From positions 95,480,001-95,544,000 of the forward strand of contig NC_059430.1 of the NCBI RefSeq assembly GCF_021028975.2: a stretch of 64,000 bases of DNA. Reading direction: 5' to 3'. The notes under the pieces are model-generated. The model was not told the DNA's origin and searched no databases. It was given only the letters and a program-made list of their open reading frames with translations. Each line of letters opens with the position of its first letter. Within the stretch, counting starts at the first letter, position 1. This document shows positions 39,130 through 40,640 of the stretch, in pieces. Source of the DNA: Sphaerodactylus townsendi (taxonomy: Eukaryota). The position numbers and the translations under genes were made by a program.

Positions 39130-40640
39130 ATATCCTTTCTTCAGAAGGCTGATTAGTGAGGGGTGTGGAAGTATGAAATCCACATTTGTGTATGAGGTAA
39201 CAAACCTAAATGAAAAAGTTGTTTACTTCTATGTTGTATGTAATGTGTCTTATTGTGCTGCCTTTTCCCAAAGAATAAAATGTTATAAATTGCCATATTT
39301 TCTCAAAATTTAAGCCATATCTAGCAAAATGTGCTTTTTTGTTGCAAGCTTCATAATTCTGACTGATGCTTTTAATATAAATGGCATTTGCTGCTGCAAC
39401 AAATGTGTCTTTGCATCTTAATATAACTAGCATTGATGATTAATTTGTTCTTAAGTTTAGCAAAATGTGGCTGGTATTTATTGTTTAACTTCATGGAAAC
39501 TAGAATAATTTGATCAAAAGTAGATTTGTATTAAAAAGGTGAAAAGTCTTGCTCTGATTATTGTCCCCTAATATACTGTCCTCTGTTGTTGCCTCAGAGT
39601 GTAAAGCTGTACAGTAATGGCGACCCCAAAGAGAAAGCATGAAAAAACCTTTAGAGTAGAGTTCAAGAATTAAGGCAAGTAGACAAGCCAAAGACCTCTT
39701 AAGGATCAGGCTTGAAGAGAAGGGAAAGTTTGGGAAAAGAAAAGATAAAGAAAAGCTGGAAGAAGGACAAGCCATAATGGGAGACAAAGCTTCGCTTTAT
39801 CTACAAATGGGGGAAAAGGTTGGTTTTCAAAGTGTAAAGATAAAGCCATCTGTCATTTTTGACCAAGCATCTCATGACAAGTCCTTCTGACAAGCACTTA
39901 AAGAGTTAAAGGTCAAGATGAAGTTGAATGGTGGCCAAGATTAAAGGAGCCATACCTGATGTATCCTACAGAATAAGAGCTATCCTCTTGCTTGTGTAAG
40001 TGGTAAACCAATCAATTTTTCTGGTGTAGTCTAGTAATGGGCCCTGTAATTCTTGCTTAATAATTAGTTGTGTCTTTTTAAACTATGGTTCTGAGGGAAA
40101 TGCAGTCTTAACTTGAGTTTGTCTGCTTAGCTTCTGCTTAGAAGCTGGTAAATAGAAATCTATTTGGATTACAGAGAAATGCAAATATGAGTACATTATG
40201 TCATATTTGACCCAAGCTTAATTTTTTAGTGTATGCCTTCATCAAAGATTTGGGTTTAACTTTACACTAGAGTAACTTTTAAACCTATAGCAGAAAAGTC
40301 TAGGGAACAATCCATTTTTAGTACTAACTTCATCAAAGTTCAGCACTTGAAATGTCACAATGGGAGTCCCAATTTAAGGGGAACACAGATTCTCAGTATG
40401 AGAAACCAGCCTTCCTTGACATATTAGTATTTATGGGAAGAATATGGCATTCACACTTTTTAAGTGGAAATTTGCCTTTTTTCTAAAAGTTTGTAATAGG
40501 TATACAGTTAATGTCAGCTAATTTTTGGTTATGCCAAAATAAGTTGGTAAAACAAGGGTATATGATGGCATTAGAAAGCCAAACCTTGTTAACTATAGCT
40601 GTAAATACTTCAAATTCCCAAGTACCTTAACATCTAGCAC
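39130..40640 (+). other. SRSF10: U12-type AT-AC minor-spliceosome intron of SRSF10
   Basis: 5' ATATCCTTT at 39130; branch point TACCTTAAC 40623-40631; terminal AC 40639-40640; removal restores FAYVQ|FEDVRD in frame. Confidence 0.93.
39598..39995 (+). other. SRSF10: Putative SRSF10 poison/autoregulatory exon inside the U12 intron (3' end uncertain)
   Basis: U2 branch CCCTAAT, pyrimidine tract and CAG ending 39597; strongly GA-rich body; TGA 39640-39642 in frame when joined to the GAG|GTAACA donor at 39197. Confidence 0.7.

What the first reader, a model, noticed from the sequence alone, without database searches (positions are those of the whole stretch)
39130..40640. Minor/major spliceosome switch in SRSF10: AT-AC intron with a competing GT donor and GA-rich poison exon
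Seen: productive splicing needs the U12 sites (ATATCCTTT at 39130; CCTTAAC branch; AC at 40640). A U2 donor GAG|GTAACA lies 67 nt downstream (39197), and a U2 acceptor at 39597 opens a purine-rich exon. Joining them gives a 93-aa product ending ...FVYESVKLYSNGDPKEKA* with a broken RRM. Established: mammalian Srsf10 autoregulates through such competing minor/major sites. Inference: the whole circuit is conserved in this squamate, tying SRSF10 output to minor-spliceosome activity.
Basis: partly seen in the sequence, partly recalled or inferred. Interest (0 to 1): 0.7.

Follow-up and report, generated by a model that had tools for sequence, protein, structure and literature searches.

The report
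SRSF10 poison exon shared with SRSF12
This animal's SRSF10 splicing-factor gene carries every sequence part of a switch known from mammals, in which two splicing machines likely compete to make either a working message or a dead-end one, and a recognisable copy of the dead-end exon also sits in the sister gene SRSF12, so the exon likely predates the split of the two genes.

Summary
The AT-AC intron 39130-40640 is needed for the 262-aa SRSF10 frame. Exon 3 (39598-39960) is the ortholog of the mammalian poison exon: it has the human length (363 nt), matches human and mouse primers at 19 of 20 bases, and is 97% identical to another vertebrate whose silent sites match at 15 of 30. The switch itself is published (Meinke 2020); no junction reads were obtained, so its use in this animal is inferred.

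Corrections: the U2 donor may be 39190 (human offset, 78 aa) rather than 39197 (93 aa). The stop that mammals carry in the exon-2 extension is GGA here, so termination moves into exon 3.

New here: the minor intron of SRSF12 in this genome holds a 72%-identical copy of the acceptor and exon 3 (score 6221; best of 600 shuffles 3136), while four other intron comparisons show nothing. Ten paper searches found no report of it; one relevant paper could not be read. The scan noted SRSF10's U12 intron in other genomes before, but not this switch or the paralog copy.

The parts
34605..34669 (+). SRSF10 exon 1, coding part (ATG at 34605)
39025..39129 (+). Exon 2 up to the U12 donor (first part of the RRM)
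39130..39138 (+). U12-type AT donor of the productive intron
   Evidence: 24 of 25 bases as in the human SRSF10 donor row (compared by eye)
39130..39196 (+). Exon-2 extension (60 or 67 nt); open frame here
   Evidence: 60 of 67 bases match L008, no indel
39167..39169 (+). GGA codon where ortholog L008 has TGA and where the mouse short frame ends
   Evidence: mouse Srsf10-s primer end
39190..39195 (+). Candidate U2 donor at the human offset (60 nt); 4 of 9 U1 matches; would give 78 aa, stop at 39602
39197..39202 (+).
39560..39597 (+). U2 branch region, pyrimidine tract and AG of exon 3; aligned in L008 and in SRSF12
39598..39960 (+). Exon 3 (poison exon), 363 nt, 5-9 stops in each frame
39614..39657 (+). 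Position of the mouse SRSF10-responsive enhancer (exon 3 nt 17-60); holds AGAGAA
39940..39945 (+). ATTAAA, candidate poly(A) signal, kept in L008
39961..39969 (+). Second U12-type donor (GT subtype) closing exon 3
   Evidence: 25 of 25 bases as in the human row (by eye); 16 of 16 in L008
40625..40631 (+). U12 branch point CCTTAAC
40636..40640 (+). AG (40636-40637, partner of the exon-3 GT donor in human annotation) and AC acceptor (40639-40640)
40641..40744 (+). Exon 4 (rest of the RRM)
41200..42102 (+). Exons 5 (41200-41362), 6 (41624-41677) and 7 (from 41805): RS domains, stop at 42102

Best explanation
This intron is the ortholog of the mammalian SRSF10 switch: removal of the AT-AC intron gives the 262-aa protein, while the major spliceosome likely joins an extended exon 2 to exon 3, whose stop codon would make a dead-end message, and SRSF10 itself likely promotes that route by binding exon 3. 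Shown by sequence: the U12 sites, two candidate U2 donors, the U2 acceptor, a 363-nt non-coding exon under very strong constraint, a closing U12 donor, and a stop in exon 3 for all four donor/acceptor joins tried. Inferred from mammals: which sites are used, the feedback, and dependence on minor-spliceosome level. The exon-3 message would end either by polyadenylation near ATTAAA 39940 (short unstable protein) or by U12 splicing from 39961 to exon 4, which leaves the stop 318-356 nt before a junction and so predicts NMD. Loss of the upstream stop in this lineage would change only the length of the dead-end peptide. The exon is likely older than the SRSF10/SRSF12 duplication.
For: Frame needs the AT-AC intron. 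Human U12 donor, acceptor and exon-3 donor rows match at 24 of 25, 23 of 26 and 25 of 25 bases (by eye). Human exon 3 is 363 nt from coordinates, as here. The BsrGI site spans exon 3 nt 11-16, as in the mouse numbering. Human and mouse exon-3 primers match 19 of 20 each (by eye). Against ortholog L008: exon 3 351 of 362, four-fold sites 15 of 30 (Fisher p 1.7e-12), intron before it 209 of 280, intron after it 381 of 609. Mechanism in mammals: PMC7244321, PMC7726792. Paralog copy.
Against: No RNA junction was seen in this animal. The donor at the human offset has only 4 of 9 U1 matches here (5 in L008), and a 6-of-9 donor is common by chance. The mammalian stop in the exon-2 extension is absent. 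The AG partner of the exon-3 U12 donor is not kept in L008. There is no AATAAA between exon 3 and exon 4. Conservation rests on one ortholog contig plus short human and mouse strings from papers.
Confidence: 0.85

Rival explanations
1. The U12 donor closing exon 3 acts mainly as a U11-binding enhancer that defines exon 3 across the exon (as the USSE does in SNRNP48 and RNPC3), so the minor spliceosome would act on both arms of the switch. This adds to the main reading rather than replacing it.
For: The site is invariant though rarely used in mammals (35 against 512 spanning reads in the HeLa table). Its AG partner is lost in L008. The acceptor-to-donor distance is nearly fixed: 363, 363, 362, and 359 to a degenerate site in SRSF12; distance constraint is a USSE trait.
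Against: A USSE is a tandem repeat; this is one site with 7 of 9 consensus matches. Exon 3 to exon 4 splicing does occur in mouse hepatocytes. RNPC3 knockdown left the exon-3 form unchanged or slightly higher, not lower.
Confidence: 0.25
2. Exon 3 is kept for another job (a DNA enhancer or an RNA element in a retained intron), and the major-spliceosome route is little used in this animal.
For: Constraint covers all 363 nt at 94-100% per 50-nt bin, far more than a 44-nt enhancer needs. The donors are weak. Retention of this intron is substantial in human tables.
Against: Constraint starts at the branch/acceptor and stops just after the U12 donor, which are splice boundaries. The acceptor is kept even in the paralog. 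No Rfam family fits: 1 weak hit outside exon 3 (E 0.6) in the window, 0 in the paralog.
Confidence: 0.1
3. The SRSF12 copy is a decaying relic or a product of old gene conversion and does nothing today.
For: It has no U2 donor better than 5 of 9 between its U12 donor and the acceptor, only 90 nt apart; it lacks AGAGAV motifs and ATTAAA; its closing U12-like site is degenerate. Its conservation in other species was not tested. Its divergence (72%, many gaps) far exceeds the 97% between SRSF10 orthologs.
Against: Four-fold sites between the paralogs match at 8 of 26 and four other intron comparisons score within shuffles, so an unconstrained copy should be unrecognisable. Branch region and AG are kept in register. 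Human SRSF12 shows a cryptic exon and upstream-exon skipping in this intron in testis and CE/AA flags in ZRSR2 mutants, though without coordinates.
Confidence: 0.35

Closest known systems
Mammalian Srsf10 exon 2/exon 3 minor-major switch (Meinke et al. 2020, PMC7244321; Neumann et al. 2020, PMC7726792)
   Same: Same gene, same AT-AC intron, nested GT-AG intron, 363-nt exon 3, enhancer position, closing U12 donor, AG 3 nt before the AC.
   Different: The stop lies in exon 3, not in the exon-2 extension; two candidate donors 7 nt apart, of which the stronger is not at the human offset; U12 intron 1511 nt against 3635 nt in human; nothing functional tested here.
Human SRSF12 U12 AT-AT intron (PMC8280824 and PMC6717393 supplements)
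   Same: The paralog in this genome has the same AT-AT intron (acceptor 28 of 31 bases as in the human row, by eye).
   Different: The tables flag cryptic exon use but give no coordinates and do not link it to SRSF10 exon 3.
SRSF4/SRSF6 shared intron-2 poison exon (Lareau and Brenner 2015, PMC4379411)
   Same: A poison exon at the same place in two vertebrate SR paralogs.
   Different: That case is an ordinary U2 cassette; here the shared exon sits inside a minor intron. The passages seen do not mention SRSF10 or SRSF12.
Twintrons such as Drosophila prospero, and the USSE of SNRNP48/RNPC3 (review PMC8329584)
   Same: U2 intron nested in a U12 intron; a U12 donor at a fixed distance after a U2 acceptor.
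   Different: prospero makes two proteins; the USSE is a tandem site not used for splicing.

Membership tests
U12-type AT-AC intron | RTATCCTTT donor, CCTTAAC branch point close to the 3' end, removal restores the frame | tested here: met
   9 of 9 donor, branch motif 40625-40631, AC at 40639-40640, 262-aa frame
Mammalian SRSF10 switch | Competing U2 donor downstream of the U12 donor | tested here: inconclusive
   Two conserved GTs (39190, 39197); human offset is 60 nt; the human sequence of the extension was not available to place indels
Mammalian SRSF10 switch | U2 acceptor and orthologous exon 3 inside the minor intron | tested here: met
Mammalian SRSF10 switch | Major route yields a premature stop | tested here: met
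   4 of 4 joins stop in exon 3 (78, 84, 90, 93 aa)
Mammalian SRSF10 switch | Stop lies in the exon-2 extension | tested here: not met
   GGA at 39167-39169 where L008 has TGA
Mammalian SRSF10 switch | GA-rich enhancer sequence at exon 3 nt 17-60 | tested here: met
   AGAGAA at exon nt 33; region nearly identical in L008 and under both primers; sequence only
Mammalian SRSF10 switch | Minor donor at the end of exon 3 | tested here: met
Mammalian SRSF10 switch | Poly(A) site in or after exon 3 | tested here: inconclusive
   ATTAAA 39940 kept in L008; no 3'-end data; human site position not found
Mammalian SRSF10 switch | Both junctions used in RNA | not tested
   No reads were laid on this stretch
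Mammalian SRSF10 switch | SRSF10 promotes exon 3; output follows minor-spliceosome level | not testable with these tools
   Needs knockdown or minigene work
USSE (SNRNP48/RNPC3) | Tandem U12 5' splice sites | tested here: not met
   One RTATCC site at 39961; none other in 39131-40640
USSE (SNRNP48/RNPC3) | U11 binding activates the upstream U2 acceptor | not testable with these tools
   Needs mutation of the site
Known structured RNA (Rfam) | Match to a family model | tested here: not met

The most novel reading that the evidence does not exclude
The poison exon arose inside the minor intron of the single SRSF10/12 ancestor before the vertebrate gene duplication, and SRSF12 still uses its copy: lacking a good competing donor, it would splice into the kept AG by skipping exon 2 (41-aa dead end) or by a U12 AT-AG join (76 aa). 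SRSF10 and SRSF12 would then share one ancient sensor and could cross-regulate, with minor-spliceosome supply limiting both.
Probability: 0.4. Interest if true: 0.6.

Novelty: new variant of a known kind. Interest (0 to 1): 0.36.

Why it matters
The switch is known, so the reptile copy mostly extends its range. It gives an ectotherm in which to test a splice event that is temperature-driven in mammals, and it shows that the position of the stop can move while the 363-nt exon stays almost unchanged, so the constraint is on the exon, not on the short peptide. The SRSF12 copy matters more: it dates the exon to before a duplication shared by fish and mammals (SRSF12 range), names a concrete candidate for the unmapped cryptic exon in human SRSF12, and gives a natural comparison for finding which bases of this highly conserved exon are essential.

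Tried and rejected
RNA evidence: one search listed 22 runs; 14 had word shares of 0.17-0.18, 5 held the stretch, 3 were raw RNA runs added by species label. None was laid, so none counts as evidence. Ortholog search by protein in metagenome contigs: 599 pattern hits, 0 confirmed. Exon 3 as coding exon: rejected, 5-9 stops per frame here and 6-9 in L008, and L008 has a 1-nt deletion. Exon 3 as repeat: one match in the own genome, itself; that search also missed the SRSF12 copy, so it is insensitive. Default blastn likewise missed the paralog copy; it needed Smith-Waterman scoring. snoRNA or other Rfam family: none. Recent duplication as cause of the paralog likeness: rejected. Short-isoform last exon 7b: no peptide match in 41681-50000. 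Earlier scan notes by sequence and by relatives: none. Twintron survey PMC3564746: 0 hits for six terms. Leclair 2020, which covers poison exons of 14 SR proteins, is not held in the library; it may describe an SRSF12 exon.

Full report
Observation. The gene runs from ATG 34605 through exons at 39025-39129, 40641-40744, 41200-41362, 41624-41677 and 41805 onward, and gives 262 aa only if the 1511-nt AT-AC intron 39130-40640 is removed. Exons 2 and 4 carry RRM_1 profile positions 13-45 and 46-69 (both fragments match, only the first above the curated cut-off). The name SRSF10 rests on matches to published human splice-site rows and to human and mouse primers (compared by eye). The host label 'squamate' was not tested.

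What is known. Meinke et al. 2020 (PMC7244321; parts 1-4 of 5 of the text and supplement 1 read, figures not seen) show in mouse and human that an upstream minor donor leads to exon 4 and protein, and a downstream major donor leads to exon 3, a stop in the exon-2 extension and a poly(A) site; SRSF10 promotes exon 3 through nt 17-60; exon 3 has a rarely used minor donor. Neumann et al. 2020 (PMC7726792; passages, supplement hits and part 2 of 8 of the review file) add cold induction and NMD when exon 3 is spliced to exon 4. A review legend says conservation of this region is plotted over 35 vertebrates (PMC11346455, passages), so conservation beyond mammals is not a surprise. Searches listed no paper devoted to the reptile locus.

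Orthology of exon 3. Human coordinates in the supplements of PMC8280824 (rows only; file 13 not searched) give a U12 intron 23975078-23978712, a nested U2 intron 23978274-23978652 and a second U12 donor at 23977910. That makes human exon 3 363 nt. The window has a U12-type GT donor at 39961, exactly 363 nt after the AG at 39597, and its 25-base context equals the human row. The BsrGI site ends at exon nt 16 as in mouse. One metagenome contig, L008 (1 hit), is a non-human, non-mouse ortholog: exons 2 and 4 encode the same 68 of 68 residues, four-fold sites match at 15 of 30, exon 3 at 351 of 362, the intron before at 209 of 280 and after at 381 of 609 aligned bases. High identity starts at the branch region and ends just after the U12 donor. 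All three frames of exon 3 are closed.

The human extension is 60 nt, not 67. The window has a GT at both offsets, and L008 keeps both without an indel. The 67-nt site pairs better with U1 (6 of 9 against 4 of 9) and is unchanged in L008; the 60-nt site fits the human length. Without the human sequence of the extension I cannot decide; I put them near even. The products are 78 aa (stop 39602) or 93 aa (stop 39640). Second, L008 has TGA at nt 38-40 of the extension, where the mouse short-isoform primer also ends; the window has GGA. The stop has therefore been lost in this lineage and termination falls in exon 3. All 4 of 4 donor/acceptor joins tried still stop 318-356 nt before the exon-3 donor, beyond the 50-nt NMD rule, so the outcome should be the same. 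Third, the poly(A) candidate is ATTAAA at 39940, kept in L008; there is no AATAAA before exon 4.

The paralog. A search of the own genome with exon 2 gave a second locus. Its exons read as a close paralog, with a U12 donor, CCTTAAC and an AT end that match the human SRSF12 AT-AT row (acceptor 28 of 31 by eye). A PNRC-family gene follows both genes on the opposite strand, as expected of a block duplication. Local alignment of the two minor introns finds one block: window 39542-39934 against G000:C1 about 134307646-134308042, 253 of 352 aligned bases, score 6221. Dinucleotide shuffles (200 each, whole and in 100- and 40-nt windows) reached at most 3136, 0 of 600 at the observed score; 66 real tiles reached at most 1982. 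L008 aligns to the same block (284 of 395, score 7073), through to a degenerate U12-like site 359 nt after the AG. Four other intron comparisons score within or below 20 mononucleotide shuffles each, and four-fold sites match at 8 of 26. So the likeness is confined to the acceptor and exon and is best read as shared constraint since duplication. SRSF12 is present from fish to mammals (PMC12330525, passages); the link to whole-genome duplication is my inference.

Against a working SRSF12 copy: only 90 nt separate its U12 donor from the AG, no GT there exceeds 5 of 9, AGAGAV and ATTAAA are absent (one perfect AAAGACAAA is present), and conservation in other species is untested. For it: human SRSF12 passes the filter for a cryptic exon and for upstream-exon skipping in testis (PMC6717393, passages and supplement rows) and is flagged CE/AA in ZRSR2 mutants (retention padj 0.11). 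Neither gives coordinates. Predicted joins into the AG stop at 41, 62 or 76 aa.

Literature on the shared exon. Searches (listings) and term look-ups in PMC8522700, PMC8329584, PMC12330525, PMC4379411, PMC11571805 and PMC3564746 (passages only) showed no statement that SRSF12 has a homolog of SRSF10 exon 3. Leclair 2020 is known to me only through a review passage and could change this; figures and unseen supplements could too. Lareau and Brenner describe turnover of poison exons among SR paralogs but also one shared case, SRSF4/SRSF6, so a shared exon is unusual, not unique.

Verdict. The switch is real in sequence and is a variant of a published mammalian mechanism (confidence 0.85 that it works this way here). 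The moved stop is a small variation. The SRSF12 copy is the new element: its homology is well supported, its function is open (0.4). Interest 0.36.

Noticed in passing
L003:511-3209 (G000:C1:134307510-134310208): SRSF12 has a U12 AT-AT intron here as in human, which contradicts the remark in PMC7244321 that Srsf10 is the only SR protein with a minor intron.
   Followed up: yes
window 50252-50683 (-) and G000:C1:134331745-134332182 (-): PNRC-family genes lie tail to tail with both SRSF10 and SRSF12 (44% identical), marking a duplicated block.
   Followed up: partly
window 39455-39530: A conserved intronic block about 70-140 nt before the exon-3 acceptor (41 of 50 in the 39480 bin against L008); possible splicing-factor site.
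   Followed up: no
window 41624-41627: NAGNAG acceptor of exon 6 that adds or drops a serine, as described for human SRSF10.
   Followed up: partly
window 39617-39673: An 18-codon ATG-started frame in exon 3 (read by eye), basic residues, ATG also under the human primer; not kept in SRSF12.
   Followed up: no
L008, acceptor of exon 4: The AG three bases before the AC is replaced, so the exon-3 GT donor has no AG partner in that species.
   Followed up: partly
L003:1040-1050: A U2-type donor (GAG|GTAACT) near the end of the SRSF12 copy of exon 3, absent from SRSF10; no partner acceptor identified.
   Followed up: no
window 41681-50000: The short-isoform last exon 7b of mammals was not found by peptide match.
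   Followed up: partly
window 26374-26691 (+): Exon of a fatty-acid-binding protein (Lipocalin_7).
   Followed up: no
window 9181-9555 (+): Reverse-transcriptase fragment, below the curated cut-off; probably a decayed LINE.
   Followed up: no
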